Below, piece by piece: positions 12,001 through 38,016 of a stretch of DNA of 64,000 nucleotides. Position 1 is the stretch's first letter. Each line of letters begins with the position of its first letter. The stretch is taken from the NCBI GenBank assembly GCA_965204375.1, contig OZ241986.1, forward strand, positions 2,336,001 to 2,400,000. Direction: 5' to 3'. The position numbers were made by a program, and so were the translations under genes. This DNA comes from Candidatus Latescibacterota bacterium. Lineage in GTDB: Bacteria > Latescibacterota > UBA2968. The notes under the pieces are model-generated. The model saw only the letters and a list, made by a program, of their open reading frames with translations, was not told where the DNA came from and made no database searches.

Positions 12001-15000
12001 ACCACTCCTCGCACTCACCGTTACATTTCCACCAGGCTTACTGCTCAGTTTCAACGTGTAAGTCTTCGTCGATCCCTCACCTACTGTCAGACTGGTTGGA
12101 TTGACAACCACACCTGCCGTCTCGTCATCGGTAACAGACACCGCTACCTGATCCGCTGTGGTTACGCTACCATACCCACTCACCGAATGACTGATCGTAG
12201 CACTGCCATTGTTTGCATCATCATCCGAAACCCCACTCACCGTCACTGTCTGCGCATCACTCCAATTGCTGGAAGTGAACGTCACAGTCGCTGGGGACAC
12301 TGTCGCTACACTTATCGCACTACTCCTCGCACTCACCGTTACATTTCCACCAGGCTTACTGCTCAGTTTCAACGTGTAAGTCTTCGTCGATCCCTCACCT
12401 ACTGTCAGACTGGTTGGATTGACAACCACACCTGCCGTCTCGTCATCGGTAACAGACACCGCTACCTGATCCGCTGTGGTTACGCTACCATACCCACTCA
12501 CCGAATGACTGATCGTAGCACTGCCATTGTTTGCATCATCATCCGAAACCCCACTCACCGTCACTGTCTGCGCATCACTCCAATTGCTGGAAGTGAACGT
12601 CACAGTCGCTGGGGACACTGTCGCTACACTTATCGCACTACTCCTCGCACTCACCGTTACATTTCCACCTGGCTTACTGCTCAGTTTCAACGTGTAGGTA
12701 TTCGTGCTACCCTCATCCACTGTCAGCGTCTTCGGATCAACCACCACACCTGCCGTCTCGTCATCAGTTACGGTGATGTCCACAGAGTCCACTGTCAGGC
12801 TGGACGAATACTTGCTATCACTGCTGGTGGACTGATGACTGATCGTAGCACTGTCGTTGTCTGCATCATCGTCCGCAACCCCACTCACTGTCACTGTCTG
12901 CGCTGTGCTCCAATTGCTTGACGTGAATGTCACAGTCGCAGGGGACACTGTCGCCACACTTATCGCACTACTCCTCGCACTCACTGTCACATTTCCACCT
13001 GGCTTACTGCTCAGTTTCAAGGTGTAGGTATTCGTGCTGCCCTCATCCACTGTCAGCGTCTTCGGATCAACCACCACACCTGCCATGTCATCATCCGTCA
13101 CAGACACCGCCACCTGATCCGCTGTGGTCACAGAGCCATACCCACTCACTGTATGACTGATCGTAGCACTGCCATTGTCTGCATCATCATCCGCAACCCC
13201 ACTCACCGTCACCGTCTGTGCTGTGCTCCAATTGCTGGAAGTGAATGTCACAGTCACTGGGGACACTGTCGCCACACTTATCGCACTACTCCTCGCACTC
13301 ACCGTCACATTTCCACCCGGCTCACTGTTCAGTTTCAAGGTGTAGGTATTCGTGCCACCCTCACCCACTGTCAGACTGGTTGGGTCAACCACCACACCTG
13401 CCGTCTCGTCATCGGTCACAGACACCGCCACTGAGGCCACTGTCAGGCTGGACGAATACTTGCTATCACTGCTGGTGGACTGATGGCTGATCGTCGTACT
13501 GCCATCCTCTGCATCATTGTCTTGAACCCCGCTCACCGTCACTGTCTGTGCATCACTCCAATTGCTGGAAGTGAACGTCACAGTCGTTGGGGACACTGTC
13601 GCCACACTTACCGCACCACTCCTCGCACTCACCGTCACATTCCCACCTGGCTGACTGCTCAGTTTCAGCGTGTAGGTCTTACTCGAACCCTCACCCACTG
13701 TCAGGCTGGTTGGGTCAACCACCACACCTGCCTCATCGTCATCAGTGACGGATACCGCCACCTGATCCGCTGTGGTCACGGAGCCATACCCACTCACCGT
13801 ATGGGTAATCGTGGTATTGTCGTTGTCTGCATCATCGTCCGCAACCCCACTCACTGTCACTGTCTGTGCATCACTCCAATTGCTTGAGGTGAATGTCACA
13901 GTCACTGGCGATACTGTCGCCACACTTACCGCACTACTCCTCGCACTCACCGTCACATTTCCACCTGGCTGACTGCTCAGTTTCAAGGTGTAGGTATTCG
14001 TGCTACCCTCACCCACTGTCAACGTCTTGGGATCAACCACCACACCTGCCATGTCGTCATCCGTAATCGTCAGTGACGTCCCATTCACCGTCAGACCTGT
14101 GGCACTGCCACCCACCGAAACCGTCTCATTACCCTCCGCAACTGAATCGTCCGTCGGACTAATTGTAAACGTCCCGCTACCACTTGTCTGACCCGATGAT
14201 ATCGTCACCGTCACATCAGACACAGTACCATAGTCCGTGCCCTCCGTTGCACTGTCACTACCATCCCCTATCGAGACTATCACCGTCGTCGCCACCGTCC
14301 GGGCAGATTCATTCAATGTCGCTGTCACACTCACCGTCGTCGCGCTGTCATCTTCACCTACCGACGAGGGAGATACAGACAACGCCACCTCGGTCGAAGC
14401 CGTATCATCATCCGTCACAGACACCGCCACCTCATCTGCTGTGGTGACAGACCCATACCCACTCACCGAATGACTGATCGTCGCACTGCCATTGTCTGCA
14501 TCATCGTCAGCAACCCCGCTCACTGTCACCGTCTGCGCTGTGCTCCAATTGCTTGAGGTGAATGTCACAGTCGCTGGGGACACTGTCGCCACACTTGTCG
14601 CACTACTCCTCGCGCTCACCGTTACATTACCACCAGGCTTACTGCTCAGTTTCAACGTGTAAGTCTTCGTCGATCCCTCACCTACTGTCAGACTGGTTGG
14701 ATTGACCACCACACCTGCCGTCTCGTCATCGGTAACAGACACCGCTACCTGATCCGCTGTGGTCACGGAGCCATACCCACTCACCGTATGACTGATCGTC
14801 GCACTGCCATTGTTTGCATCATCATCCGAAACCCCACTCACTGTCACTGTCTGCGCATCACTCCAATTGCTTGAGGTGAATGTCACAGTCGCAGGGGACA
14901 CTGTCGCTACACTTATCGCACTACTCCTCGCACTCACCGTTACATTACCACCAGGCTTACTGCTCAGTTTCAACGTGTAGGTATTCGTGTTGCCCTCACC

Positions 15001-18000
15001 CACTGTCAACGTCTTCGGATCAACCACCACACCTGCCATGTCGTCATCGGTAATCGTCAGCGACGTCCCATTCACCGTCAGACCTGACGTGCTACCACCC
15101 ACCGAAACCGTCTCATTCCCCTCCGCAACTGAATCATCACTCGGCGTAATTGTAAACGTCCCGCTACCACTTGATGAACCAGCGGCTATGGTCACTGTAA
15201 CATCCGCCACAGTACCATAGTCCGTGCCCTCCGTCGCACTGTCATTGGTAGCCCCTATCGAGACTGTCACTGCCGTCGCGCCGGGCAGTGCTGACCCGTT
15301 CAACATTGCCTTCACACTCACCGTCTGAGCACCACCATCCTCTGTCACAGCACTCGGATTCAGACTCAATCCTATCCCGGTCGGTGCCGCATCATTATCC
15401 ATGATTTTCAGATCCGCACTCGTCACTGTGAAACCCGACGCCGTGCCATTGACTGAAACCTTTTCTTCTCCTTCCGCTATCCCATCATCACTCGGCGTAA
15501 TGGTAAATGTCCCGGTACTACTTGACGAATTAGCTGCTATCGTCACCGTGACGTCATTCACTGATGCGTAGTCCGTGCCCTCCGTTGCACTGTCACTGGT
15601 AGTCCCTATTGAGACTGTCACCGTCGTCGCAGCAGGCAGGGTCACACTGCCTGATATTGTCGCTGTCACTGTCACAGTCGTCGCGCCAGCACCTTCACCT
15701 ACCATTGCAGGTGACAAAGACAGACGAATGCCTGTCGGTGCTGTGTCATTGTCGGTAATTGTACCCGTCGCCTCAAGCGTGTTTCCGCCACCTGAAAGCG
15801 TCGCATTCACCGCATTGCTCAACGTCACCTTAAATGTCTCATTACCCTCATATATCGTGTCATCACTGATCGTCACACTAATCGCCTGGCTCAACCCATC
15901 CCCTGAACTGAACGTCACACGACCATCCGTCACTGCTGTATAGTCCTTACCCGCCTCTGCCGTTCCATCCACTGTCACCCAACTCACCGTCACGGCCTTG
16001 CTACTCGACACACTCAAACCCACCGTAAACGTCATCGTACCTGCATTCTCAGCAGCACTCGCATTACCGATGCTCAGCACAGGCACTGTGGTTTCTGTAA
16101 TGTTCACCACCACACTTGAAGCCGTCTTACCACTATAGTCTCCCGTGCTGCTGACACTATGCCTAATCGTCACTTTATCATCCACCACCGCATCGTTGTC
16201 CGTAGCCACGCTCACCGTCACCGTCTGTGCTGTGCTCCAATTGGTCGTCGTGAACGTCACAGTTGTTGGACTTGCCGACACATCTGTCCCTGTTGGCACG
16301 CTCACTCCAACCGTCACTGACGCTGTCGGCTCAGAATCCAGCACCACCGTATAGGTCTTGCTCGAACCCTCATTTATCGTCAGACTGGTTGGGTCAACCG
16401 TCACGCCTGCTGTCTCGTCATCCGTCACAGACACGGCCACCGAGGCCACTGTCAGGCTCGACGAATACTTGCTATCGCTGCTGGAAGACTGATGGCTGAT
16501 CGTCGCACTGTCATTGTTCGCATCATCGTCCGCAACCCCACTCACTGTCACCGTCTGTGCATCACTCCAATTGCTTGAGGTGAATGTCACAGTCGCTGGG
16601 GACACTGTCGCAACACTTATCGCGCTACTACTCGCACTCACCGTCACATTTGTTGAAGGCTTACTGCTCAGTTTCAACGTATAGGTATTCGTGCTGCCCT
16701 CATCCACTGTCAGCGTCTTCGGGTCAACCTCCACGCCCGCCATGTCGTCATCGGTAATCGTCAGCGACGTCCCATTTACCGTCAGACCTGATGTGCTACC
16801 ACGCACCGAAACTGTCTCATCCCCTTCTGCAACTGAATCATTCACCGGACTAATCGAAAACGTCCCTTCACCACTCGTCTTCCCCGATGATATTGTTACC
16901 GTGATCGCGGCCACTGCCCCATAATCGGCAGGCGAAGTCGCCGTCCCATCAGACACACTCACCGTCACGGCCGTCGCGCCGGGCAGTGCTGAACCATTCA
17001 GCATCGCCTTCACGGTCACCGTCTGAGCACCACCATCCTCTGTCACAGCACTCGGATTCAGACTCAAAACGATACCTGTCGGTGCCGTGTCATTATCCAT
17101 GATTTTCAGATCTGCACCCGTCACATCAAGGCCGGTAGCAGAGCCGTTCACTGAGACCTTCTCTTCTCCTTCCGCGATCCCATCGTCACTCGGCGTTATG
17201 GTAAACGTCCCGCTACCACTTGACGAATTAGCTGCTATCGTCACTGCCACATCCGACACAGCACCATAGTCTGTACCTTCTGTTGCACTGTCACTGCCAT
17301 CACCCACGCTCACTGTCACCGTCGTCGCATCAGGTAGTGTCACACTGCCTGATATTGTCGCTGTCACTGTCACCGTCGTCGCGCCGTCACCCTCACTAAC
17401 CATCGCAGGCGACAAAGACAGACGAACACTCATCGGTGCGGTGTCATTGTCTGTAATTGTGCCCGTCGCTTCAAGCGTGGACCCGCCACCAGACAGCGTC
17501 GCATTCACCGCATTGCTCAATGTCACCTTGAACGTCTCGTTACCCTCAGCTATATTATCATCGCTGATCGTCACACTCACGGTCTTGCTCAGCGCATCCC
17601 CTGAACTAAACGTCACACGACCATCCGTCACTGCCGTATAATCCTTGCCCGCCTCTGCCGTCCCATCCGTAGTCGCCCAACTCACCGTCACGGCATCACT
17701 ACTCGCCACACTCAAACTCACCGTAAACGTCAGCGTCCCTGCACCCTCAGCAGCACTCGCATTACCGATGCCCAACACAGGCACTGTGGTTTCTGTGATA
17801 CTCACCACCACACTTGAAGCCGTCTTACCATTATAGTCACCTGTGCTGCTGACACTATGCGTAATCGTCACCTGTGCATCCGCCACCGCATCAGCATCCG
17901 CAGCCACGCTCACCGTCACCGTCTGTGCTGTGCTCCAGTTATCCGCTGTGAAGGTCAGACTCGTCGGACTCGCTGACACATCCGTCCCTGTCGGCACGCT

Positions 18001-21000
18001 CACACCAACCGTCACTGACGCTGTTGGCTTAGAGGTCAGTTTCATCGTATAGATCTTACTCGCACCCTCATTCACTGTCAGACTGGTTGGGTCAACCGTC
18101 ACACCAGTCGTCTCGTCATCAGTGACGGATACCGCCACTGAGGCCACTGTCAGACTGGACGAATACTTGCTATCACTGCTGGTGGACTGATGGCTGATCG
18201 TCGCACTTTCATTGTTTGCATCATCATCCGAAACCCCACTCACCGTCACCGTCTGTGCTGTGCTCCAATTGCTTGAGGTGAATGTCACAGACCCTGGCGA
18301 TACTGTCGCCACAGCCAGCGCACTACTGGTCGCCGTTACCGTCACATTACCGCCTGGCTGGCTGCTCAGTTTCAATGTGTAGGTATTCGTAGAACCCTCA
18401 TCCACTGTCAGCGTCTTCGGAGAAACCACCACGCTGGCCGTCTCGTCATCGTTCACGGTGATGGTCACAGAATCCACTGTCAGACTGGATGAATACTTGC
18501 TATCGCTACTGGACGACGAATGACTGATCGTCGCACTGCCATTGTTTGCATCATCATCCGCAACCCCACGCACCGTTACCGTCTGCGCCGTGCGCCAATT
18601 GGTCGTCGAGAACGTCACAGTCGCTGGGGACACCCTCGCCACATCTGTAGCATTACTGCTCGCACTCACTGTCACATTACCACTTGGCTGGCTGCTCAGC
18701 TTCAACGTGTAGGTATTCGTTGATCCCTCATTCACTGTCAGACTGGCTGGGTCAACCACCACACCTGCCATGTCGTCATCCGTAATCGTCAGCGACGTTC
18801 CATTCACCGTCAGACCTTCCGTCGAACCCGTCACCGAAACCGTCTCATTACCCTCCGCAACAGAATCATCATTCGGCGTAATCGTAAACGTCTCTTCACC
18901 ACTTGTCTTCCCCGATGATATCGTCACCGTGACGTCATTCACAGATGCATAGTCCGTGCCCTCCGTCGCACTGTCATTGGTAGCCCCTATCGAGACTGTC
19001 ACCATCGTCGCCACGGTCCGGGCATCTGCATTCAGACTCGCTGTCACTGTCACTGTCGTCGCAGAATCATCCTCACCAACCGACGAGGGTGATACAGACA
19101 ACGCCACCGAACTGGATGCTGTATCATCATCCCTTAGCGTCAAACTCGCTGTCCCGCCAGTCAAACCTTCCGTCGAACCCGTCACCGAAACTGTCTCATC
19201 CCCTTCCGCTACTGAATCATTCACTGGACTAATTGAAAACGTCCCTTCACCACTTGTCTGACCGGCTGCTATCGTCACCGTCACATCCGACACAGCACCA
19301 TAGTCCGTGCCCTCTACTGCACTGTCATTGGTAGCCCCTATCGAGACTGTCACTGTCGTCGCATTAGGCAGTGCTGACCCGTTCAACATTGCCTTCACAC
19401 TCACCGTCTGAGCACCACCATCTTCTGTCACATGACTCGGACTCAGACTCAATCCTATCCCGGTCGGTGCCGCATCATTATCCATGATTTTCAGATCCGC
19501 ACCCGTCACTGTGAAACCCGACGCCGTGCCATTGACTGAAACCTTTTCTTCTCCTTCCGCGATCCCATCATCACTCGGTGTGATCGTAAACGTCCCGCTA
19601 CCACTCGACGAATTAGCTGCTATCGTCACCGTCACATCAGACACAGCACCATAGTCCGTGCCCTCTACTGCACTGTCACCCACATTACCCACACTCACCG
19701 TTACCGTCGTTGCACCCGGCAGGGTCACACTCCCATCTATTGTCGCTGTCACTGTCACCGTCGTTGCGCCGTCACCTTCACCAACCATCGCAGGCGACAA
19801 AGACAGACGAACACTCATCGGTGCTGTGTCATTGTCTGTAATTGTGCCCGTCGCTTCAAGCGTCGCCCCTCCACCTGATAGCGTCGCATTCACCGCATTG
19901 CTCAACTTCACCTTGAACGTCTCGTTACCCTCAGCTATCGTATCATCGCTGATTGTCACACTAATCGCCTGACTTAGCCCATCCCCTGAACTAAACGTCA
20001 CACGACCATCTGTCACTGCCGTATAGTCCTTGCCCGCCTCGGCTGTCCCATCCGCTGTCACCCAACTCACCGTCACGGCATCACTACTCGCCACACTCAA
20101 ACTCACCGTAAACGTCAGCGTCCCTGCACCCTCAGCAGCACTCGCATTACCGATGCCCAACACAGGCACTGTGGTTTCTGTGATACTCACCACCACACTT
20201 GAAGCCGTCTTACCATTATAGTCACCTGTGCTGCTGACACTATGCGTAATCGTCACCTGTGCATCCGCCACCGCATCAGCATCCGCAGCCACGCTCACCG
20301 TCACCGTCTGTGCTGTGCTCCAGTTATCCGCTGTGAAGGTCAGACTCGTCGGACTCGCTGACACATCCGTCCCTGTCGGCACGCTCACACCAACCGTCAC
20401 AGACGCTGTTGGCTCAGAGGTCAGTTTCACCGTATAGGTCTTGCTCGCACCCTCATTTATCGTCAGACTGGTTGGGTCAACCGTCACGCCTGCTGTCTCG
20501 TCATCCGTCACAGACACGGCCACCGAGGCCACCATCAGGCTGGACGAATACTTGCTATCACTGCTGGAAGACTGATGGCTGATCGTCGCACTGTCATTGT
20601 TCGCATCATCGTCCGCAACCCCGCTCACTGTCACCGTCTGTGCATCACTCCAATTGCTTGAGGTGAATGTCACAGTCGCTGGAGACACTGTCGCCACACT
20701 TACCGCACCACTGGTCACCGTTACCGTCACATTTCCACCTGGCTGACTGTTCAGTTTCAGCGTGTAGGTATTCGTGCTACCCTCATCCACTGTCAGCGTC
20801 TTGGGGTCAACCACCACACCTGCCATGTCGTCATCCGTAATCGTCAGTGACGTCCCATTCACCGTCAGATCTGTGGCACTGCCACCCACCGAAACCGTCT
20901 CATTACCCTCCGCAACAGAATCATTCACTGGACTAATCGTAAACGTCACCTTACCACTCGTCTGACCCGCTGTGATCGTCACCGTCACATCCGACACAGT

Positions 21001-21540
21001 ACCATAGTCCGTGCCCTCTACCGCACTGTCACCGGTAGCTCCGACAGACACCGTCACCGTCGTTGCATCAGGCAGTATCGACCCTGAAAGCGTTGCCGTC
21101 ACTGTCACAGTCGTTGCGCCGTCACCCTCACCTACCATATCAGGCGACACAGACAGACGAACACCTGTCGGTGCTGTGTCATTGTCTGTAATCGTCAGCT
21201 CCGTTCCGTTCACCGTAAGAGAGGACGAACCCGTCACTGAAACCGTCTCATCCCCTTCCGCTATCGAATCATCATTCGGCTTAATCGTAAACGTCCCCGT
21301 ACTACTTGTCAGACCCGATGCTATCGTCACCGTCACATCCGACACGGCACTATAGTCCGTGCCCTCCGTTGCACTGTCACTGCCAGAACCCACGCTCACC
21401 GTGACCGTCGTCGCCACTGTCCGCGCATCTGCATTCAACGTCGCTGTCACACTCACCGTCGTCGCGCCGTCACCCTCACCAACCGACGAAGGAGATACAG
21501 ACAACGCCACCTCAGTCGAAGCCGTATCATCATCACGGAT
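1..21540 (-). repeat. Intragenic array of ~318-bp (type A, 106 aa) and ~351-bp (type B, 117 aa) modules with occasional canonical Calx-beta modules
   Basis: Homologous antisense ORFs recur at 987-bp spacing (8675/9662/10649/11636; 4397/5384), equal to 351+318+318, and at 2385-bp spacing (17645/20030). Confidence 0.9.
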
Positions 21541-24500
21541 GTCGATCTCGATCTGGTTTCTATCGGAGATGCTTGCCGAAACTTCGCTGTTGACAAGTGC
21601 CATCTGCAGATGAAGCGTCTCAGTCTCCTCGTAGAGGTTGTCCCCAATAATGGTGATCTCACAGCTATCTGCACTGTCGGTCAGGATGCAGTTGCCGAGT
21701 GTGAAATCGTCCTCTGTGGCGGTGCTGGTGTTGTTTCGCGTGAAACTGAGCTCTATGTCACCCTCCCACGCCTTGTCCGCGTTTACCGGGAATCGGCGTA
21801 ATTGATCTGTGTCCGTTTCGTTAAGCGTCACTTTGGTGCCCCTGGATAACGTGACTACTTCGCTTCTGTCCGTTATCTTGACCATAAACCTTGCGTCTTG
21901 GGGATGAGGTGTGTAGCCGTCTCCGGGTTCGATAGTGATTAATATGTATTCCGGCGGCTCTATGACTTCGTCATCGCAGACCACGATCTGGAATTGGATA
22001 GAAGTTACTCCCATGCCCACAGACGCTCCCTCGACCATCACGATATCTACTCCACCATCGCTGCAACTACCAGTGGTTACAGCGGTGGCGAGTCTCTTGC
22101 CCGGCGAGGGAACCGCCTTCAATTTGACAATGGCTGAGGACAACTGTATGCCGGTACTGAAGTCTAACGCGATGGTAAACGATTGATCTCTTTCCGTCAC
22201 TCCTTCGATCACCTCCAACGAGGTATCCGTGAAGGAGACCGTGGGCGGTCCTTCATCGTCATCATTAATGGTTCCGGTCGCCAATTGCCTTTTGTAGTTA
22301 GTGTTCCCAGTTATGTTACTCAGCGTCAGCCTCAGCGTCTCGGACGCCCCTTCATTGAAAGTGTCGCCCGTCACCATCACGACCACGTCCATCGCGGATA
22401 CGCCCGGATTGAACGTCAGTGTACCTCTCCCCGCCGTGTAGTCCACGCCCGCCTTCGCCGTGCCGTCGCTCGTCGCCCATTCCACCATGGTTTCCCTGTC
22501 CGCCGGAGGCGACAGCGTCACCGTAAACACCAACTCGGTCTCGCCCGCGTCGCCCTCGGTCACCTCGGCATCCGCCACAGAGAACGCCGAAATGCCCTCG
22601 TCGTCAATCACCGTCACTGTCACCGCGCCGCTCACCATAGCATAGTCGCCCCCACTCGCCCCATGGACGATATTCGCCGTGCGGTCCGACGCGTTATCTA
22701 CATTGTCGTCCGTCCCCATCACCGTCACCGTCTGCGCTGTGTTCCAGGCGTCCGTCGCAAACGTCAGTGAGGTGGGGGTGACACGCGCCACAGCATTGTC
22801 TTCCGAGCTGACCGAGACCGTCACTTCCGCCGTGGGCTTCGACGTCAATGCCACCGCGTAGGTCGCCGTATTCATCGCACCCGATGCCTCTGTCACCGTC
22901 ACGCTCTGCGGCGACAGCGCGAGACCACGCTCGTCGTCGTCGATAATCGTACCCGTCGCGCTCGCCGTGCCGAGTGTGGCACCCCCAGTCGGGTTACTCA
23001 GCGTCACTGTCACCGCCTCGTTGTCCTCGTCAATCTCATCGCCATACACCGACACCGTCACCGCCTTCTCGGTCTCGCCCGCAGCGAAATTCTTTGAGCT
23101 GATCCTCGCTATGTAGTCCAGCCTCGCCTTCGCCGTGCCGTCGCTCGTCGCCCAGTCCACCCTGGTTTCCCTGTCCGCCGGAGGCGACAGCGTCACCGTA
23201 AACACCAACTCGGTCTCGCCCGCGTCGCCCTCCATCACCTCGGCATTCGCCACAGAGAACGCCGAGATGTCCTCGTCAATCACCGTCACTGTCACCGCGC
23301 CGCTGACCATAGCATAGTCGCCTCCACTCGCCACATGGACGATATTCGCCGTGCGGTCCGACGTGTTATCTACGTTGTCGTCCGTCCCCATCACCGTCAC
23401 CGTCTGCGCTGTGTTATAGCCGTCCGTCGCAAACGTCAGTGAGGTGGGAGTGACACGCGCCACAGCATCGTCTTCCGAGCTGACCGATACCGTCACCTCC
23501 GCCGTGGGTTGCGATGTCAACGCCACCGTGTAGGTCGCCGTGTGCATCGCACCCGATGCCTCTGTCACCGTCACGCTCTGCGGCGACAGCGCGAGACCGC
23601 GCTCGTCGTCGTCAATGATTGAGATGACCGCAATGGAATCTGCGCTTACGGTATAAGGCGCATAGGGTATTTCGGAGAGCTTGAGATAGATGGTCTCGGT
23701 GTCCTCTTTTTCGTCGTCACCCTTGATGGTGATGTCGAAGGAAACGGAGGTCTGTTGCGCGGACAGTTCGAGCGACCGGGATGGTAGGGTGTAGTCGGTA
23801 TCGAGGGTGGCTGTGCTTTCAGAACCAATATTGATGGTAACCGTGCTGGCCTCGGTCTGTGCCGGATTGATGTTCACCGTGAGGCTCAAGGTCGCGTCGC
23901 TGTCGGTCTCTGTGTGGCGATATGTGGTTTCGTCCCAACTGACATCGTATGAGCAAGTCGTGCCTGAGAATCTATGGATTTTCCCCGCCCAAGTCTGGAA
24001 CTCCATGTCTGCAGGTACACACAGCCCGGAGTTCCAGATACTCATTTGAAATAATTGCTTCAGTGCCGTGAACGTCCGGGGTAGTGGGCCCGACAACTTG
24101 TTGTTGGGGAGATTCAGGCGCCGCAGCTTGGACAGGTTGCCCAACTCTGATGGAATTGACCCCGACAAAGTGTTGGTACCGAGATGCAGGCTCGTCAGAT
24201 TGGACAGACCGCCCAACTCTGATGGAATTGACCCCGACAAAGTGTTGGCGCTGAGATTCAGGCTCGTCAGATTGGACAGGTTGCCCAACTCTGTTGGAAT
24301 TGACCCCGACAAAGCGTTGTTGGAGAGATCCAGACTCGTCAGATTGGACAGGTTGCCCAACTCTGTTGGAATTGACCCCGACAAAGCGTTGCGGGCGAGA
24401 TCCAAGCTCGTCAGATTGGACAAGCTACCCAACTCTGTTGGAATCGTCCCCATCAAATTGTTGTCGGAGAAGAACTCGAGTTGGGTGACCCGATTTTGTG

Positions 24501-27500
24501 AAACTTTGACGCCTTCCCAGTCGCTGATGGGTTTACTGTCATCCTTCCAGTTGGTGTTTCTATGCCAGTTCGCTCCATCGGTCGCATCGTAAAGCGCGAT
24601 CAGCGCCGCCCGGTCAGGGGACGCATCATCATCCTCTATCGTGACCGTCACACTGGCTGAACCCACAGTGTAAGGGGCATCGGCAATGGCCGAAAGGGTG
24701 AGAATGAAGACCTCTTCAAGCTCGTAGATGTCGTCACCCTTGATCGTGACGTCAAAAGTGGTGCTCTCAGTGTTTGCAGACAACATGAGGGACGTGCTGG
24801 AAACTGTGTAATCGCTCGTGCTGCTGGCGTGGTTGACGCCCGTCTGCGTGCTCTGCCCAGCACTCACGTTGACCGTACTGGCCTCGGTCAGTGCCGGGCT
24901 GATATTCACCGTGAGGCTCAAGGTCGCGTCGCTGTCGGTCTCTGTGTGGCTATATGTGGTTTCGTCCCAACTGACACTGACATCGCGGCAGGTCTGACCT
25001 CTGTAGGTCCCGATTTCCCCCACCCAGTTCCGGAACTCGGTGTCTGCAGGTACACACAGCCCGGCGTTCCCTCTGATTCTCAGAATATTGAGGCTCAGTG
25101 CCGTGAACGCCCGGGGAAGTGGGCCCGTCAACTCGTTGGCGGAGAGATCCAGGCTCAGCAGATTGGACAGGTCGCTCAGTTCTGTTGGAATCGTCCCCGA
25201 CAAAGCGTTGCGGGCGAGATTCAGGCTCGTCAACTTGGACAGGCTACCCAGCTCTGATGGAATTGACCCCGACAAAGCGTTGCCGTGGAGACTCAGGCTC
25301 GTCAGATTGGACAGATCGCCCAACTCTGATGGAATCGTCCCCGACAAAGCGTTGTTGGAGAGATCCAGGCTCGTCAGATTGGACAAGCTACCCAACTCTG
25401 TTGGAATCGTCCCCATCAAATTGTTGTTGGAGAGCCGGATTGTGGTGACCCGATTGTCCCGTGAAACCTGGACGCCTTCCCAGTCGCTGATGGGTTTACC
25501 TTCATCCTTCCAGTTGGTGTTTCTATGCCAGTTCGCTCCACCGGTCGCATCGTAAAGCGCGATCAGCGCAGCCCGGTCAGGGGACGCATCATCATCCTCT
25601 ATCGTGACCGTCACACTGGCTGAACCCACAGTGTAGGGGGCATCGGCAATGGCCGAAAGGGCGAGAATGAAGACCTCTTCAAGCTCGTAGATGTTGTCAC
25701 CCTTGATCGTGACGTCAAAAGTGGTGCTCTCAGTGTTTGCAGGCAACACGAGGGACGTGCTGGAAACTGTGTAATCGCTCGTGCTGATAGCGTGGTTGAC
25801 GCCCGTCTGCGTGCTCTGCCCAGCACTCACGTTGACCGTACTGGCCTCGGTCAGTGCCGGCCTGATATTCACCGTGAGGCTCAAGGTCGCGTCGTTGTCG
25901 GTCTCTGTGTGGCTATATGTGGTTTCGTCCCAACTGACATCGCGGCAGGTCTGACCGCTGTAGGTCAGGATTTCCCCCACCCAGTCCCGGAACTCCATGT
26001 CTGTAGGTACACACAACCCGGCGTTCGAGTTGATATCCAGATTAATAATGAGGTCCAATTTCGTGAACGCCCGGGGAAGTGGGTCCGTCAATTCGTTGTT
26101 GGAGAGAAAGAGGCTCCGCAGCTTGGACAGATTGCCCAATTCTGATGGAATTGACCCCGACAAAGCGTTGTTGGAGAGACCCAGGTGCCGCAGCTCGGAC
26201 AGGTTGCCCAATTCTGATGGAATTGACCCCGACAAAGCGTTGTTGGAGAGATTCAGGTACGTCAGCTTGGACAGGTTGCCCAATTCTGATGGAATTGACC
26301 CCGACAAATTGTTCTTGTTGAGTTCCAGGTACGTCAGCTCGGACAGGCTGCCCAACTCTGATGGAATCGTTCCTCTCAAATTGTTGCTGGAGAGAAAGAG
26401 GTTGGTGACCCGATTTTGTGAAACGGTGACGCCATACCAGTCGTTGATGGGTTTACTATCATCCTTCCAGTTGGTGTTATTCGACCAGTTTGCTCCACCG
26501 GTCGCATCGTAAAGCGCGATCAGCGCCGCCCGGTCAGGGGACGCATCGTCATCCACGATCGTCAGCGTTGATGACACGACACTCAGCCCCGACGCACTGC
26601 CACTCACTGAAACGGTCTCATTTCTTTCAAAAGACGAATCGTTTGTCGGCGTGATCGTGAACGTCCCTGTCCCACTCGTCTGACCCGCAGCAATTGTCAC
26701 CGTGACATCTGACACGGCACCATAGTCCGTACCCTCCGTTGCACTGTCACCGGTAGCCCCTATCGAGACTATTACCGTCGTCGCCACCGTCCGCGCATCT
26801 GCATTCATCGTCGTTGTCACCGTGACCGTCGTCGCGCCGTCACCCTCACCCACTGACGATGGAGACACCGTCAAAGACACCGAACTGGAAGCCGTCTGGG
26901 CTTCTATCCGCTTCGTATCGTCATCCTTGATCGTCAGCGACATTATGTTCACCAGCAGACCCGGCGTCGAACCCGTCACCGTAACTGTCTCATCCCTTTC
27001 TGCAAACGAATCATCCACTGGCGTCAGCGTGAACGTCCCTGTTCCACTCTGCTGCCCCGCAGGAATCGTCACCGTGACATCTGACACCGCTCCGTAGTCC
27101 GCTGGCGAAGTCGCTGTCCCATCACCCACACTCACCGTCACTGCCGTGCTCTCATTCAGTGTCGTGCTCCCATCTATCGTCGCTGTCACCGTCACTGTCG
27201 TCGCGCCGTCACCCTCACCCACTATCGCAGGGGACAAAGACAGACGAACACTCGTCGGTGCGGTGTCATTGTCTGTGATTGTACCCGTCGCTTCAAGCGT
27301 CGTCGCGCCACCTGAAAGCGTCGCATTCACCGCATTGCTCAGCTTCACCTTAAATGTCTCATTACCCTCAGCTATGTTATCATCACTGATCGTCACACTC
27401 ACGGTCTTGCTCAACGCATCCCCAGCACTAAACGTCACGCGACCATCCGTCACTGCTGTATAGTCCTTGTCCGCCTCTGCTGTCCCATCCGCTGTCACCC

Positions 27501-30500
27501 AACTCACCGTCACGGCCTCACTACTCGCTACACTCAAACTCACCGTGAACGTCAGCGTACCGGCGTCCTCAACAGCACTCCCATTTTCTATACTCAGCAC
27601 GGGCACTATTGTCTCACTGATGCTCACCACCACGCTCTCAGCCATCTCACCACTATAGTCACCTGTGCTACTGACACTGTGCGTAATCGTCACTTGATCA
27701 TCCACCACGGCATCATCGTCCGTAGCCGCGCTCACCGTCACGGTCTGTGCGGTGTTCCAGTTATCCCCTGTAAATGTCAGACTCGCCGGACTCGCCGACA
27801 CATCCGTCCCTGTCGGCACGCTCACTCCAACTGTCACAGACGCTGTCGGCTCAGAGGTCAGCTTCAGTGTGTAGGTCTGCGTGCTCCCCTCATCCACCGT
27901 CAGACTGGTCGGAGCAACCAACACATTAGGCGTCTCGTCATCCGTTACAGATACCGCCACCTGATCCGCTGTGGTTACAGAACCATAACCACTTACCTCA
28001 TGGCTGATCGTCGCACTGCCATTCTCTGCATCATCGTCCTGAACCCCACTCACTGTTACCGTCTGTGCCTCATGCCAGTTGTCCGCTGTAAACGTCACAG
28101 ACATTGGGGACACTGTCGCAACACTTATCGCACCACTGCTCACCGTTACCGTCACATCGCCATCAGGCTGGCTGCTCAGCTTCAGCGTGTATGTACCAGT
28201 GTTGCCCTCACTCACCGTCAGACTCGTCGGAGCAACCAACACACCCGCCATGTCGTCATCCGTAATCGTCAACTCTATACCCGTCACTGTCAGACCCGAC
28301 GTGCTACCACTCACAGAAACTGTCTCATTCCCCTCCGAAACCGAATCATCCATTGGCGTCAGCGTGAACGTTCCTGTCCCACTCGTCTGACCCGCAGGAA
28401 TCGTCACACTGAAGTCATTCACCGCTCCGTAGTCCTCCGGCGAAGTCGCTGTCCCATCACCCACGCTCACCGTCACTGTCGTGCTCCCATTCAGTGTCGT
28501 ACTTCCATCTATCGTCGCTGTCACGGAAACCGTCGTTGCGCCATCACCCTCACCAACCACCGCAGGTGACAAAGACAGACGAACACCCGTCGGTGCTGCA
28601 TCGTCATCCGTGATTGTCCCGGTCGCTTCAAGCGTCGTCGCGCCACCTGAAAGCGTCGCATTCACCGCATTGCTCAGCCTCACCTTAAATGTCTCGTTAC
28701 CCTCAGCTATATTATCATCACTGATCGTCACACTCACGGTCTTGCTCAACGCATCCCCAGCACTGAACGTCACGCGACCATCCGTCACTGCTGTATAGTC
28801 CTTGCCTGCCTCTGCTGTTCCATCCTCAGTCGCCCATGTCACTGTCACTGCCTCTCTACTCGCCACACTCAAACCCACCGTGAACGTCAGCGTACCGGCG
28901 TCCTCAACAGCACTCCCATTTTCTATATTCAGCACGGGCACGGTTGTCTCACTGATGCTCACCACCACGCTCTCAGCCATCTCACCACTATAGTCACCTG
29001 TGCTACTGACACTGTGCGTAATCGTCACCTGATCATCCACCACGGCATCATCGTCCGTAGCCGCACGCACCGTCACCGTCTGTGCCTCGTTCCAATTATC
29101 TGCTGTGAATGTCAGACTCGTCGGACTTGCCGACACATCTGTCCCTGTCGGCACTGTCACTTCAACTGTCACAGACGCTGTCGGCTCAGAGTTCAGTTTC
29201 ACAGTGTATATGCCAGTGTTCCCCTCATCCACCGTCAGGCTGGTCGGAACAACCAAAACGCCAAGCGCCTCGTCATCCGTTACAGATACCGCCACCTGAT
29301 CCGCTGTGGTTACAGAACCATAACCACTTACCTCATGGCTGATCGTCGCACTGCCATTCTCTGCATCATCGTCCTGAACCCCACTCACTGTTACCGTCTG
29401 TGCCTCATGCCAGTTGTCCGCTGTAAACGTCACAGAACCTGGGGATATTGTCGCAACATCTATCGCACCACTGCTCACCGTTACCGTCACATCGCCACCC
29501 GGCTGACTGCTCAGTTTCAAGGTGTAGGTCTGCGTTGCACCCTCATCCACCGTCAGGTTGGTCGGATTGACAACCACACCAGTCGTCTCGTCATCGGTGA
29601 CAGATACCGCCACAGGATCCGCTGTGGTCACGCTGCCATAACCACTCACCTCATGACTGATCGTAGCACTGCCATTATCCGCATCATCGTCCTGAACGCC
29701 AGCCACTGTCACCGTCTGCGCATCCTTCCAATTGTCCGGCGTGAATGTCAAAGACTCTGGGGATACTGTGGCTACACTTGCAGCACCACTACTCGCACGC
29801 ACCGTCACATCGCCACCTGGCTGACTGCTCAGTTTCAACGTGTACGTACCAGTGCTCCCCTCACCCACCGTCAAGCTGGTCGGAGCAACCAACACACCTG
29901 CCATGTCGTCATCCGTAATCATCAGCGATGTTCCATTCACCGTCAGACCTGACGTGCTACCACTCACCGAAACTGTCTCATTCTCCTCCGAAACCGAATC
30001 ATCACTCGGACTAATCGTAAACGTACCGCTACCACTTGACGAATTAGCTGCTATCGTCACCGTCACATCAGACACTGTGCCATAGTCTGTACCCTCCGTC
30101 GCACTGTCGCCCACATCACCCACAGACACCGTTACCGTCGTCGCGCCTACCAGTGTCGTACTTCCATCTATCGTCGCTGTCACGGAAACCGTCGTTGCGC
30201 CATCACCCTCACCAACCATATCAGGAGACACAGACAGACGAACACCCGTCGGTGCTGCATCGTCATCCGTGATTGTCCCGGTCGCTTCAAGCGTTGTCTC
30301 ACCACCGCTCAGCGTCGCATTCACTGCATTACTCAGCCTCACCTTAAATGTCTCGTTACCCTCAGCTATATTATCATCACTGATCGTCACACTCACGGTC
30401 TTGCTCAACGCATCCCCAGCACTAAACGTCACGCGACCATCCGTCACTGCTGTATAGTCCTTGCCTGCCTCTGCTGTTCCATCCGCTGTCACCCAACTCA

Positions 30501-33000: not shown

Positions 33001-33016
33001 AGCAAAAAGTGTGCCA
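33001..33016 (-). promoter_or_regulatory. sigma54 (RpoN) -24/-12 promoter for the giant gene
   Basis: Minus strand reads TGGCAC-ACTTT-TTGCT, an exact TGGCAC-N5-TTGCW match, oriented toward the giant ORF; predicted +1 near 32990. Confidence 0.85.
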
Positions 33017-33092
33017 GTTTATACCAAATGAGCTAATTCCTTGTAGATAAAGGAGTTGGGGCAGATGAGGTATGATTCTCAGATCTTTGAAT

Positions 33093-33246
33093 TGTTACAG
33101 AATGCGACACTACAAATTGCTCAGGAGTGCATATCTACTGAGTTAGGTATGAAACAAATATTTGTTTTATAGAGGATTTATGGAAAAATTAAAGGTGGGA
33201 TATAAGGATTTGTTGCCATTTGAAACAAATGTCGCATTTTACAACA
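33093..33246. promoter_or_regulatory. Three TGT-N11-ACA pseudo-palindromes, candidate upstream activator sequences
   Basis: TGTTACAGAATGCGACA (33093-33109), TGTTGCCATTTGAAACA (33211-33227), TGTCGCATTTTACAACA (33230-33246); about 80-230 bp upstream of the -24 box. Confidence 0.6.
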
Positions 33247-33396
33247 AATATGGCAAATACGACCTCGTTCCAAAAAATTTTTCATTTTTTTGAAGGAAAT
33301 ATTCTATATTATGTCATGTGCGACTTTAAATAGACAGGAGGAGGTTCCTTGGGCATGTTGTAAAATTTCTATAAATTGTTTAAAAACAATATGTTA

Positions 33397-33409
33397 CCCC
33401 CCCCCCCCC
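33397..33409. repeat. C13 homopolymer tract in AT-rich intergenic region
   Basis: atgtta-CCCCCCCCCCCCC-gaatttttc seen directly. Confidence 0.9.
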
Positions 33410-33678
33410 GAATTTTTCAAATTCAGAATCGCTATCTTATGCGATTTTTTTGTACTGCCCGCTGAGATAACTCTAAAAATTATCACACCCAATCTGTCCA
33501 TATTTATTCGGTATTACTCTATGGACATTTTGAAGTCACACATCGCGTACTTTTCTGTATTGGTTATAGCACTCTGGGATATTGCGATGGCACTGCTTTC
33601 CACGACCTGAGTGGATACCACAACGCACTGTAAAAGTGTAGAAATTTAAAAAAGTCACTCCAACAGGATGCGAATAGT

Positions 33679-35790
33679 ATGACCGATGCAAAAATAATGA
33701 TTGTCGAAGACAATGCCTCCGGCGTTGCCCACCTTGAAGAATGCCTGAAAAACCTGGGATACACAGTGTGCGCTGCAGTTTCGTGCGGACGTCAAGCCCT
33801 TGAAAAAGCCGCGGACACGCATCCCGACCTGGCCCTGGTCAATCTCTGTCTCGAAGGGGAGATCACAGGCCCGGAAATAGCCGAGCAGATCGGCAGCCGG
33901 TTCGACATTCCCGTGTTATATCTGACTGACGAAGCCGAGGGAGACCTGTTGCAACAGGCACAGGCGACCACTCCCTTCGGCTATGTGCTGAGACCCTTCG
34001 AGGAGCAACAACTCCACCTGAACATCCTGACTGCCCTCGCGATGCACAAGAAGGAACGCCGGCACAAAGAGACAGAGGTCAGGTTGAAACAGACAATCAA
34101 CAAATTGGAAGATTTCACCCACCTCATGGAAGCGGTATTCAACAGCATGAATGAAGGTGTGGTTGCGGTTGATGAAAACAGGATGCTCATGTTTTACAAT
34201 TCAAGCGCGGGGCGGATCGCCGGGGAGCATCCAGAGCCAGTAGAGGCAGATATCTACACATGGGCCGAAAGGTACGGTGTTTTCAAGCCCGATGGAGAAC
34301 TATTTGGTTCGTTGGATGATAGTCCGATTGGCATTTCTTTGAAAGGCGGAACAACGGACGAAGTCGAGGTACTCATACGCAATGAATTTAAGCCTGAAGG
34401 CGTTCACATCAGGGTTAACAGCAGACCTCTGCTGAGAGAAACAGGTGTTTTGAAAGGGGCCGTGATCGTCTTCCGCGACATCACCACGGAAAAAAAAGTA
34501 ACCGCGGAATTGGACAAAACAATGGGGGAGTTACGCTATCAAAGCGAACTCATGGAAACCTCGTTCAAGAGCATCAGCGACGGCATAGTCGTCGCCGACG
34601 CCGAGGGGAAATTCCTCTACGTCAATCCCGGTGCCGAACACATCGTCGGGATGGGCATAACGGACGGAACCCTGAATGAATGGGTCAAAAAATACGGCAT
34701 TTACTATCCCGACCGGGAAACACCGCTGAAAACGGAGGCTCTGCCCCTGGTCCGCGCCATACACCACGGCGAATCGACAGATGAGCAAGATCTGTTCATA
34801 CGCAACCGAAACAGGCCGGCCGGTGTTTTTATCCGTATGAGCGGATGGCCGCTACTCGATAATACAGGCGGGATCAGGGGAGGTGTAATCATTTTCCGCG
34901 ACGTTACCAGGAGCGTGCTCGCCGAGGAGGCTCTGGATCGGGCATTCGCGCAAGGGCGCATGGAGATCGTGGATACCATTCTCCACAACATCGGCAACGC
35001 CATCACCAGTGTCACCACGGGTATTGAGACTGTACGCAGGAACCTGACGAATGATCAAGCCGGACGCCGTCTTTCCGCGCTGGCCATGGCGATAAAGGCG
35101 CACCGGGAAGACTGGACCAATTACATCGAGAATGACCCGCAGGGCCAGAAGGTTATGCCGTTCATCATCGAACTTGCCGAAGACTTCTCCAGGCAGAACG
35201 AAGAACTGATGAAGACGGTCAGTCGCGTCAGGGACAGGGCGAATCGCATCGCCGATATCATCCGCACACAAAAGACACTCGACAGTGCCAACATGGATCG
35301 CAAGGACATCGACCTTCAAGACGCGCTCTCGAGTCCTTTCAGGGTATTGAGAGATTCGCTCAACAAAAGGGGGATCCATACCAGCATCGACTGCGAAAAC
35401 GCACCGCAGGAAATTCGTATCCAAGAGAGCCAGTTTCACCAGATGCTGATCAACCTGGTTAAAAATTCGATTGAAGCCATTGATGATCTCGCAGGTACTC
35501 ATGGATTCGACGAAACGCCCCGTATTGGGATAGAGGCCAGCATCAGAGACGATTTTTTTTATCTACAAGTAATCGACAACGGCATCGGCATAAAAAATAA
35601 AGACACCAGGGTGATCTTCTCCCCTAATTATACCACAAAAGAATCTGGGACCGGGCTCGGTCTCCATTCGGCGGCCAATTTCGTCATTGCTTCGGGTGGA
35701 AAAATTCAGGCTTTGAGCGAGGGCACTGGTAAGGGCACGACGATGCGCATCATGCTGCCGCTTTCCTCGGTGACGACCAGTGACGGTTGA
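33679..35790 (+). CDS. Soluble sensor histidine kinase: atypical REC, two PAS, HisKA-like, HATPase
   Basis: REC-like N-terminus KIMIVEDN; two PAS-like segments ending V(I/V)IFRD-type motifs; H-box ILHNIGN; N-box NLVKNSIEAI; DNGIGI; GTGLGL; no obvious TM helix. Confidence 0.9.
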   Translation: MTDAKIMIVEDNASGVAHLEECLKNLGYTVCAAVSCGRQALEKAADTHPDLALVNLCLEGEITGPEIAEQIGSRFDIPVLYLTDEAEGDLLQQAQATTPFGYVLRPFEEQQLHLNILTALAMHKKERRHKETEVRLKQTINKLEDFTHLMEAVFNSMNEGVVAVDENRMLMFYNSSAGRIAGEHPEPVEADIYTWAERYGVFKPDGELFGSLDDSPIGISLKGGTTDEVEVLIRNEFKPEGVHIRVNSRPLLRETGVLKGAVIVFRDITTEKKVTAELDKTMGELRYQSELMETSFKSISDGIVVADAEGKFLYVNPGAEHIVGMGITDGTLNEWVKKYGIYYPDRETPLKTEALPLVRAIHHGESTDEQDLFIRNRNRPAGVFIRMSGWPLLDNTGGIRGGVIIFRDVTRSVLAEEALDRAFAQGRMEIVDTILHNIGNAITSVTTGIETVRRNLTNDQAGRRLSALAMAIKAHREDWTNYIENDPQGQKVMPFIIELAEDFSRQNEELMKTVSRVRDRANRIADIIRTQKTLDSANMDRKDIDLQDALSSPFRVLRDSLNKRGIHTSIDCENAPQEIRIQESQFHQMLINLVKNSIEAIDDLAGTHGFDETPRIGIEASIRDDFFYLQVIDNGIGIKNKDTRVIFSPNYTTKESGTGLGLHSAANFVIASGGKIQALSEGTGKGTTMRIMLPLSSVTTSDG

Positions 35791-35812
35791 TTGAACGTTG
35801 AGAGGATGCTTT

Positions 35813-37675
35813 ATGAAATACGAGAACAACCGCGTCCTGATCGTCGATGATCAGCGCGAGATCCACGACGACTTCACAGAAATGTTGCGTATTGCGCCGC
35901 CGTCAGCCAATGACCTGACGGCGGCGTTCATGCACGAGGAAGAGGAAAACTTTTTGCCGGAGTTCGAGCTTCTGCACGCGAACAACGGCGAGGAAGCATA
36001 TAAAATCATCGCGACGGGAAAGGAATCGAACCGTCCCATCGCCGTCGCTTACATCGACATCAGAATGCCTCCGGGCATTGATGGTATAGAGACGATCCGC
36101 CGGGCGAGAAGAATCGACCGCGATATTGAGGTCGTCATCATGACCGCGTACACCGACAAATCGCTACCCGAGATCGTCCAGGACATGGAATTGCTGCACA
36201 AACTGCTCTATATCAGAAAACCTTTTACGCACGAGGAGATACAGCAGATCACCCTGTCCCTGGTTGGGAAGTGGAACATCGAACAGGAACTATCAGATAA
36301 ACGGCGGCAACTCACCACCAGTCACCGGAGACTGGAAGCTGTACTCAATGCTACTGGAGACGCCATTGCGATGCACAATAGCGCTGGATACCTGATCTTC
36401 GCCAACCAGTTGTACGAGAGACTACTGGGTCTGAAGGAAAGCGAACTAAAGAAAATGCCACCCCGCGATATCGAAGCGCGTATCAAAGAGCTGTTCCGGG
36501 ATCCAGATCTGGGCGACATGGCGGGAAATTTCCCGCTCAATGGCGGCAAAGTGGTGAAAACGACCAGCGAGGGACTGAAGTCGAGGCTGTTCTATTGCTC
36601 TACCGCACCGGTGTGCGACATCCGGGAAGAGGTGATCGGCAACCTCGCCGTGTATCGGGATGTGTCAAAGGAGATTGAGGTCGAGCAAGTGAAGGCCGAG
36701 TTGCTGCGCTTGCGCGCCGAACGACCTGCTTTATTTCCCGACCTGATCGGCACCAGCTCCGTAATGCAGCAGATGTACGCGCTGATGCAGCAGGCCGCCG
36801 AAAGCGATATCACAGTGTTCATTCGCGGCGAGAGCGGCACAGGTAAGGAATTGGTAGCCAACTCATTGCACGCCAACGGCCCGCGCAAGGATGGGCCGTT
36901 CGTAGCTCTCGATTGCGCCGCCATTCCCGAAACACTCATCGAAAGCGTGTTGTTCGGACATGAACGAGGGGCTTTCACGGGAGCGATAACGCAGAGAATC
37001 GGGGCCTTCATGCGCGCCAATGGAGGCACGCTCTTTCTCGACGAGATCGGCGACATGCCGTATAGCCTGCAAGGCAAGCTATTGCGCGTTTTGCAGGAAC
37101 GGGAAATCCAGCGGATCGGAGGAATAGATCCCATTCCCATCGACATTCGCGTGATAACAGCGACCAACAAGGACCTGGAGCGCGCAGTAAGAGAGGGCAA
37201 GTTCCGCCAGGATCTGTTCTATCGCATCGCTGCCTTCCCCATCCCGATTCCACCGCTGAGAGATCGGCCTGAAGATATTTCCCTGCTGGTCAAGCATTTT
37301 CTCGAAAAATATACTGTCCAGACCGGCAAATCCATAAGCGGCATTTCTCCCCTTGCCCTGCGCCTGTTGCTGCAGTACGATTGGCCGGGCAATGTGCGCG
37401 AGCTGGAGAACGCGATAGCGCGCGCTGTGTTGTTGGAGACGACCGGGGTGCTGCAAGCAGATAACCTGCCGTCTCAGCTATCGTCGACCGTTGCTTCGAA
37501 AAGAGACCTCTCGGCATCACTGGAGATCCTGCCACTGGCCGAGATCGAGCGACAGGCCCTGATCCATGCGATCAACGCCACGGACAACAACATGACTCAG
37601 GCCGCCCAGGCACTGGGTATTAATCGGACGACCCTGTACCGGAAGTTAAAGAAATACAACATTGTCAGAGGTTGA
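35813..37675 (+). CDS. NtrC/AtoC-family sigma54-dependent activator: REC, PAS-like, AAA+, Fis HTH
   Basis: VLIVDD and YIDIRMPPGIDG receiver; Walker A GESGTGKE; GAFTGA; LFLDEIG; WPGNVREL; AAQALGINRTTLYRKLKKY. ATG 35813 follows AGAGGA. Confidence 0.95.
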   Translation: MKYENNRVLIVDDQREIHDDFTEMLRIAPPSANDLTAAFMHEEEENFLPEFELLHANNGEEAYKIIATGKESNRPIAVAYIDIRMPPGIDGIETIRRARRIDRDIEVVIMTAYTDKSLPEIVQDMELLHKLLYIRKPFTHEEIQQITLSLVGKWNIEQELSDKRRQLTTSHRRLEAVLNATGDAIAMHNSAGYLIFANQLYERLLGLKESELKKMPPRDIEARIKELFRDPDLGDMAGNFPLNGGKVVKTTSEGLKSRLFYCSTAPVCDIREEVIGNLAVYRDVSKEIEVEQVKAELLRLRAERPALFPDLIGTSSVMQQMYALMQQAAESDITVFIRGESGTGKELVANSLHANGPRKDGPFVALDCAAIPETLIESVLFGHERGAFTGAITQRIGAFMRANGGTLFLDEIGDMPYSLQGKLLRVLQEREIQRIGGIDPIPIDIRVITATNKDLERAVREGKFRQDLFYRIAAFPIPIPPLRDRPEDISLLVKHFLEKYTVQTGKSISGISPLALRLLLQYDWPGNVRELENAIARAVLLETTGVLQADNLPSQLSSTVASKRDLSASLEILPLAEIERQALIHAINATDNNMTQAAQALGINRTTLYRKLKKYNIVRG

Positions 37676-37909: not shown

Positions 37910-37915
37910 GATTTT

Positions 37916-37989: not shown

Positions 37990-38016
37990 CGATACGTATT
38001 TGATCTGCGAAACGTT

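What the first reader, a model, noticed from the sequence alone, without database searches (positions are those of the whole stretch)
23950..26545. Three plant-receptor-type LRR domains varying mainly at concave-face residues
Seen: three capped LRR domains, each followed by a Calx-like spacer, with about 5-6 repeats each. The scaffold (LSGSIPSELGNLS) is near-identical in DNA, while the xxLxLxxN positions vary: TYLELNKN, TYLNLSNN, RHLGLSNN, TSLSLHGN, TSLNLARN, TSLHLGTN, RRLNLPNN. Established: these positions form the ligand-binding face of plant LRR receptors and lamprey VLRs. Inference: a diversifying multi-specific binding cassette placed mid-stalk, possibly for host or competitor recognition.
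Basis: partly seen in the sequence, partly recalled or inferred. Interest (0 to 1): 0.7.

Follow-up and report, generated by a model that had tools for sequence, protein, structure and literature searches.

The report
Fast-evolving binding tips on giant adhesin
A 14,000-residue, likely surface-anchored bacterial protein carries three small leucine-rich-repeat domains near its far end whose predicted gripping face has changed its amino acids about four times faster than silent sites, likely under selection to bind new partners that nobody has yet identified.

Summary
Confirmed. The stretch is three capped plant-type LRR domains (5, 5, 6 repeats) with Calx-beta spacers, at residues 2085-2951 of a 14,078-codon minus-strand ORF ending in an autotransporter-like barrel. 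They sit near the distal end, not mid-stalk. In the 10 internal repeats, concave codons give omega 3.9-6.1, convex 0.9-1.3, buried 0 (p<=5e-5 on three trees). A close homologue (spacers 79-85% identical) has at least five, probably seven, such domains, and only 1 of its 17 concave patterns is shared. But concave>convex variation is the family norm (17 of 17 arrays); this array is unusual only in being young enough to show omega>1. No diversity-generating retroelement, and four internal repeats are identical in a second sample, so diversification is evolutionary, not VLR-like. The cassette was absent from 13 of 13 congener autotransporters read. Ligand and habitat are untested. The scan has noted this capped-LRR family on other genomes. 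New variant of a known kind.

The parts
1..32736 (-). Giant ORF carrying the cassette: 14,078 codons from the TTG at 32796 (14,058 from the ATG at 32736, 14,039 from the ATG at 32679); runs 9.4 kb past the window's left edge to a stop at G000:C1:2326560; mostly Calx-beta/Ig-like repeats, C-terminal autotransporter-like barrel outside the window
32617..32679 (-). Likely Sec signal peptide (basic start, hydrophobic core, AAA before Q), judged by eye
   Evidence: no predictor run
25939..26544 (-). LRR domain 1 (aa 2085-2286): N-cap, 5 repeats at 26409-26050, two-Cys C-cap
25588..25938 (-). Calx-beta-like spacer 1 (117 aa)
24976..25587 (-). LRR domain 2 (aa 2404-2607): 5 repeats at 25449-25090
24625..24975 (-). 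Calx-beta-like spacer 2, 97.4% identical in DNA to spacer 1
23944..24624 (-). LRR domain 3 (aa 2725-2951): 6 repeats at 24486-24055
23602..23943 (-). Third, more diverged Calx-beta-like domain closing the cassette; resembles the protein's first domain (aa 66-177)
33002..33016 (-). Exact sigma-54 -24/-12 consensus site about 270 bp upstream of the first ATG; the only 0-mismatch site in the window
33679..37675 (+). Divergent receiver-PAS-histidine kinase and receiver-PAS-sigma-54 activator pair, likely controlling the gene

Best explanation
The three domains are likely ligand-binding tips on a giant, predicted autotransporter adhesin, and their concave face has likely been driven by diversifying selection to bind changing partners, most likely surface proteins or glycans of a host or of neighbouring microbes. 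Shown: one 14,078-codon ORF with three capped 24-residue LRR domains near its N-terminus; the LRR+spacer module was duplicated recently (spacers 97% identical); amino-acid changes are concentrated at the beta-strand/turn positions with omega about 4-6; a close homologue has more modules, different repeat numbers and different concave residues. Predicted: each domain folds like a plant SERK co-receptor ectodomain; the C-terminus is an outer-membrane barrel. Inferred: about 90 Calx-beta/Ig-like domains hold the cassette a few tenths of a micrometre from the cell; unequal recombination between near-identical scaffolds and spacers changes repeat and module number; point changes at the concave face are then kept by selection. 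Untested: expression, export, ligand, habitat.
For: Anatomy. Selection: pN concave 0.437 vs pS 0.147, ratio 3.0 (leave-one-out 2.6-3.5), convex 1.0; ML omega 4.3/6.1/3.9 concave, 1.1/0.9/1.3 convex, 0 buried, LRT p 1e-5, 4e-8, 5e-5 on trees from all, scaffold-only and concave-only columns; tree-free count 19 extra amino acids to 2 extra synonymous codons at concave sites vs 8 to 7 elsewhere, Fisher p=0.019. Silent sites inside the variable island are not old (L6 codon CTC 10 of 10, L4 third base 10 of 10, third bases of codons 3, 5, 7, 8 kept 9 of 10 each). Fold: AlphaFold2 pLDDT 97.9, strands at repeat positions 3-5; best PDB matches SERK1/SERK2/BIR ectodomains, TM 0.77-0.79. Homologue P0166 (with P0034, P0167): spacers 79-85% identical, concave identity 28% vs convex 50%, 1 of 17 concave patterns shared. 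Barrel: Pfam PF03797 E 4e-5; top five Foldseek hits are autotransporter barrels. Concave face as the usual ligand face: PMC3138743 and PMC3341825, passages.
Against: Only 10 short, non-independent repeats; 89 of 153 informative site pairs are incompatible, and both recombination and multi-base mutations are known to inflate omega (own knowledge). Convex positions also have omega near 1, so constraint is loose outside the core. The pattern is the family norm, and in the 16 older arrays concave pN/pS is only 0.82-1.83 (partly saturation). No ligand evidence. The barrel is below Pfam's cut-off (23.9 vs 26 bits) and its model is weak (pLDDT 51.7, TM 0.39). No allele difference was listed at any LRR codon in three runs with cover.
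Confidence: 0.65

Rival explanations
1. Relaxed constraint plus artefact: concave positions simply tolerate any residue, and repeat conversion and multi-base mutations make omega look above 1. The domains would be generic sticky or spacer modules.
For: Concave > convex variation in 17 of 17 arrays, with ratio near 1 in most; many concave codons differ at two bases; heavy site incompatibility; small sample.
Against: Neutral tolerance predicts omega about 1, as at convex sites, not 4-6; the result holds on the concave-only tree (p=5e-5). If the scaffold had been homogenised around old islands, silent sites in the islands would be diverged; they are not.
Confidence: 0.15
2. Escape, not gain: the concave face is selected to change because a phage fibre, predator or host immune protein binds it.
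For: Exposed distal position of the cassette; omega>1 is blind to the direction of selection.
Against: An outside binder could use any exposed face, yet the excess is confined to the canonical ligand face; about 13,000 residues of stalk stay repetitive and spacers show pN 0.026.
Confidence: 0.12
3. Self or kin recognition: the domains bind matching domains on sister cells, so each lineage drifts to a private code.
For: SERK/BIR-like folds pair with other LRR ectodomains in plants (PDB titles); lineage-private concave patterns.
Against: No test of homotypic binding was run; three different faces on one chain are not needed for this.
Confidence: 0.06
4. A diversity-generating retroelement randomises adenines in AAY codons of the repeats.
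For: Variable codons at positions 3, 5, 7, 8, 10 mostly keep C/T at the third base while the first two change.
Against: No template: no hit outside the cassette of 100 bp or more exceeds 75% identity, and no repeat-like copy outside at up to 12 mismatches. Both reverse transcriptases of the genome carry intron maturase and HNH domains. Silent adenine of Pro16 unchanged in 10 of 10; 13 of 23 concave changes start from a non-A majority base.
Confidence: 0.02

Closest known systems
Plant extracellular (plant-specific) LRR ectodomains, closest SERK1/SERK2/BAK1, BIR2/3, PGIP
   Same: 24-residue xLxLxxNxLt/sGxIPxxLxxLxxL unit (PMC3138743 passage); five-repeat capped solenoid, TM 0.77-0.79 to 4lsc, 6g3w, 6fg8; variable concave face.
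   Different: Bacterial; no cysteines in the N-cap (cysteines only in the C-caps); no membrane helix or kinase; three domains strung in a stalk.
Ectocarpus ROCO type I LRR exons (PMC3341825, passages)
   Same: 72-nt, 24-aa units that vary in number and show positive selection on the concave face, tested by the same unit-by-unit approach.
   Different: There each unit is an exon in a GTPase or kinase protein of an alga; here the units are intron-free parts of a secreted bacterial stalk with no signalling domain.
Lamprey variable lymphocyte receptors (features recalled; mentioned in PMC3341825 passages)
   Same: Small capped LRR solenoid with a variable concave face on a stalk.
   Different: No pool of unrearranged cassettes, no sign of per-cell assembly; repeats identical in a second sample where covered.
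Eukaryotic-like LRR proteins of sponge-associated bacteria, including Latescibacterota (PMC12993501, passages)
   Same: Same capped domain occurs in 35 of 40 related genomes and 3,759 database proteins.
   Different: Those read here are 200-2,500 aa proteins without an autotransporter stalk; the cap-spacer-cap junction was found in 0 of 20 congeners and in one other assembly.
Type Va autotransporter adhesins and giant Calx-beta/Ig-repeat adhesins
   Same: Signal peptide, long repeat passenger, C-terminal beta-barrel; 17 of 20 congeners have a related barrel, on ORFs up to 11,240 aa.
   Different: Passenger of about 13,600 residues with an LRR cassette; 0 of 13 congener autotransporters read carry one.

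Membership tests
Plant-specific LRR class | 24-residue LxxLxLxxNxLxGxIPxxLxxLxx consensus | tested here: met
   10 of 10 internal repeats fit; unit spacing exactly 24
Plant-specific LRR class | Curved solenoid with concave beta-sheet | tested here: met
   predicted only: pLDDT 97.9, TM 0.79 to SERK1
Plant LRR receptor kinases / receptor-like proteins | Cysteine-containing N-cap | tested here: not met
   each domain has two Cys, both in the C-cap
Plant LRR receptor kinases / receptor-like proteins | Membrane helix and cytoplasmic signalling part | tested here: not met
   LRRs are flanked by Calx-beta domains; no kinase family hit in residues 1-4000 or the last 460; the middle is visibly the same repeats
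Variable lymphocyte receptors | Pool of unrearranged LRR cassettes beside an incomplete gene | tested here: not met
   no repeat copy outside the cassette; the gene is complete
Variable lymphocyte receptors | Cell-to-cell sequence diversity | tested here: inconclusive
   only assembled contigs were available, which drop rare variants; no LRR codon difference listed
Diversity-generating retroelement target | Template repeat in the genome | tested here: not met
Diversity-generating retroelement target | DGR-type reverse transcriptase | tested here: not met
   2 of 2 PF00078 matches are group II intron proteins
Diversity-generating retroelement target | Changes confined to adenines | tested here: not met
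Type Va autotransporter | N-terminal Sec signal peptide | tested here: inconclusive
   fits by eye; no predictor run
Type Va autotransporter | C-terminal 12-stranded beta-barrel | tested here: inconclusive
   PF03797 E 4e-5 but under cut-off; low-confidence model with more than 12 long strands whose top hits are EstA, Hbp, BrkA, EspP barrels
Type Va autotransporter | Passenger exported to the cell surface | not testable with these tools
   needs microscopy or proteomics
Eukaryotic-like proteins of sponge symbionts | Encoded by a sponge-associated bacterium | not tested
   run and organism names are coded; relatives' proteins are labelled Gemmatimonadota; sponge association is my inference
Eukaryotic-like proteins of sponge symbionts | Acts on host cells | not testable with these tools
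   no assay

The most novel reading that the evidence does not exclude
A bacterial antibody-like display system: strains of this lineage shuffle 72-bp repeats and whole LRR-Calx modules at the tip of a sub-micrometre autotransporter stalk, so a population carries a library of binding faces matched to host or microbial partners. Omega 4-6, the homologue with seven differently faced domains, and the 37-fold depth spread among exact-match pieces in run X3 are all compatible with this.
Probability: 0.2. Interest if true: 0.75.

Novelty: new variant of a known kind. Interest (0 to 1): 0.47.

Why it matters
Eukaryote-like LRR proteins of uncultured marine bacteria are counted in many genome surveys, but their partners are unknown. 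This array is young enough to show which residues selection acts on and gives three sister domains, plus about seven in a homologue, that differ mostly at six positions per repeat. That is a ready-made set for pull-downs that ask what such proteins bind. It also extends concave-face positive selection, described for plant, algal and lamprey receptors, to a bacterial surface protein. It matters less as a new system: the domain family is large and the mechanism looks like ordinary duplication plus selection.

Tried and rejected
DGR origin: rejected. Assembly artefact: rejected. Old variable islands in a homogenised scaffold: disfavoured. Direct proof of recombination among repeats: not obtained; a PHI-like test gave p=0.96, and the apparent mosaic N-cap of domain 3 is explained by domain-2-specific changes. 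Read-level allele test: only contigs were served; all 9 listed differences lie in the spacer or N-cap start and each equals the other copy's letter, so they may be collapsed copies; parts without cover in X3 (most of domain 1's front half, 24996-25148) prove nothing. X4 and X5 hold only small shares and were not used. No RNA holder listed. Genome-contig scan gave 6 distant loci of 105 candidate stretches; metagenome scan gave 26 loci, Calx-only, 26-44% identity: no strain allele. One search left out arrays with under 5 strict-pattern repeats and duplicates; its copy of this array had 6 repeats. No complex prediction was run, for lack of a candidate partner. Literature searches for a bacterial case of concave-face selection or an LRR-Calx autotransporter found none; the library lacks most subscription papers and no supplements were read.
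Full report
What is there. The finding lies inside one minus-strand ORF that starts near window 32736 and continues 9.4 kb beyond the window, 14,078 codons from the first possible start. It is by far the longest ORF of the 6.34-Mb genome; the next is 3,365. It opens with a likely signal peptide, consists mostly of Calx-beta/Ig-like repeats and ends in a region that weakly matches the autotransporter barrel family (E 4e-5, 23.9 bits against a cut-off of 26). A low-confidence model of that region (pLDDT 51.7) has autotransporter barrels as its first five structural matches. Residues 2085-2951 hold three LRR domains of 5, 5 and 6 exact 24-residue units, each with a cysteine-free N-cap, a two-cysteine C-cap and a following Calx-like domain. 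The cassette is at 15-21% of the chain, so with a C-terminal anchor it would lie near the distal end. Domain 1 is predicted with pLDDT 97.9, with strands on repeat positions 3-5, and matches SERK and BIR ectodomains best (TM 0.77-0.79). By sequence the best solved relatives are also plant receptor ectodomains.

Is the variation real and face-specific? [quoted passage not shown] I used the 10 internal repeats of 16, leaving out the first and last unit of each domain. Buried positions have no amino-acid change. Entropy is 1.57 against 0.63 bits (p=0.014), pN is 0.437 against 0.144, and pS over all codons is 0.147. A codon model with one silent clock gives omega 3.9-6.1 concave, 0.9-1.3 convex and 0 buried; omega=1 at concave sites is rejected on all three trees tried, p at most 5e-5. 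A tree-free count agrees (p=0.019). Silent sites within the variable island are as young as the scaffold. Caveats: ten short related units, 89 of 153 incompatible site pairs, and two-base codon changes, all of which can inflate omega.

How unusual is it? The domain is common: matches in 35 of 40 related genomes, up to 75 per genome, and 3,759 of 7,970 scored database proteins. In all 17 arrays with five or more strict repeats among 63 loci, concave sites vary more than convex ones. This array stands out by youth: pS 0.15 against 0.30-0.71, and concave pN/pS 3.1 against 0.82-1.83 in the 16 others, where saturation hides any excess. The two inner spacers are 97.4% identical, so the LRR+Calx module was duplicated recently.

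Relatives. Related barrels occur in 17 of 20 congeners, on ORFs up to 11,240 aa. I read 13 of those 32 ORFs (three only in part, 89-92% of their length); none has an LRR domain. The cap-spacer-cap junction was not found in any of 20 congeners (one N-cap-only hit). One protein search found a close homologue, P0166, 1,883 aa (search limited to 2,000 aa). It has five LRR domains (two cut at its ends) and four spacers 79-85% identical to ours; P0034 and P0167 each add one domain and share the same 13,402-bp contig length, so I infer one frameshifted gene with about seven domains. Its complete domains have 3 to 8 units. Across the two genes concave identity is 28% and convex 50%, and 1 of its 17 concave patterns occurs among our 9. 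Module number, repeat number and binding face therefore all differ between close relatives.

Mechanism of change. The kept third bases suggested a diversity-generating retroelement. It failed every test: no template, both reverse transcriptases are group II intron proteins, silent adenines are untouched and most concave changes start from other bases. In a second sample (run X3) contigs cover the concave codons of four internal repeats with no difference (8 of 13 pieces shown), which argues against fast per-cell variation. The same run shows pieces with 0-1 differences at depths from 3.4 to 127, where runs X1 and X2 are flat; this is a weak hint of strains with other repeat or module sets, since contig depth is no copy number. 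Unequal recombination is the likely source of number changes but was not shown directly.

Context. An exact sigma-54 site lies at 33002-33016, upstream of the gene, facing away from a kinase and a sigma-54 activator. In six congeners a 65-68% identical activator lies within about 0.3-0.9 kb of an autotransporter ORF (coordinates). In G016 the genes that flank the giant gene here are directly adjacent, so the gene is accessory at this site. Proteins at 90% identity to neighbouring genes are labelled Gemmatimonadota; earlier scan notes call this genome Latescibacterota, which fits my recall of how these bins are classed but was not tested. Sponge-associated Latescibacterota carry LRR eukaryotic-like proteins (PMC12993501, passages). 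That this genome is a sponge symbiont is inference.

Comparison and verdict. It works like the ligand face of plant, algal and lamprey LRR receptors; PMC3341825 (passages) reports positive selection on the concave face of 72-nt LRR exons in Ectocarpus. It is not a plant receptor, a VLR or a DGR target by the tests above. Giant bacterial proteins with LRR and adhesin domains have been mentioned before (bioRxiv 10.1101/2023.11.21.568195, two passages). Nine searches found no report of concave-face selection in a bacterial surface LRR or of an LRR-Calx autotransporter (other papers seen as listings and abstract starts only, no supplements). The scan has described the same capped domain family in other genomes. 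Verdict: a real, measurable case of binding-face diversification in a new architectural setting, with ordinary mechanics and an unknown ligand. New variant of a known kind, interest 0.47.

Noticed in passing
window 33002-37675; L093, L096, L097: The kinase/sigma-54 activator pair recurs in congeners beside different secreted or surface genes, each with a sigma-54 site: autotransporters in six genomes, secreted proteins with an EF-hand/dockerin-like tail and a 700-aa LRR protein in G020, and a shorter fused receiver-activator form in G016 and G008. It looks like a portable switch for variable surface proteins.
   Followed up: partly
G017:C1:~4853000-4885700, G015:C1:~890300-924000, G010:C1:~1686400-1712900: Congeners encode other giant autotransporter-like ORFs of 10,886, 11,240 and 8,822 aa; their barrels are only 27-36% identical to this one.
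   Followed up: partly
window 21800-22300: A non-repetitive stretch (aa ~3515-3760) with two cysteine pairs interrupts the Calx stalk just after the LRR cassette; a candidate further binding region.
   Followed up: no
L031:5227-8670 (G000:C1:5313124-5316666): A second multi-domain capped LRR protein (1,147 aa) in the same genome, with an internally duplicated short LRR module and older repeats (pS 0.455).
   Followed up: partly
L023:2896-3261: A short direct repeat recurring three times with unique spacers beside a group II intron reverse transcriptase; looks like a small CRISPR-type array, seen only in a translation.
   Followed up: no
window 40617-54710: Minus-strand operon of TPR/peptidase MA, DUF4159, MoxR AAA, DUF58, BatA-vWA, DUF4175-like and GATase1-like genes.
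   Followed up: no
window 37915-38592: 225-aa ORF with no Pfam match, right after the sigma-54 activator.
   Followed up: no
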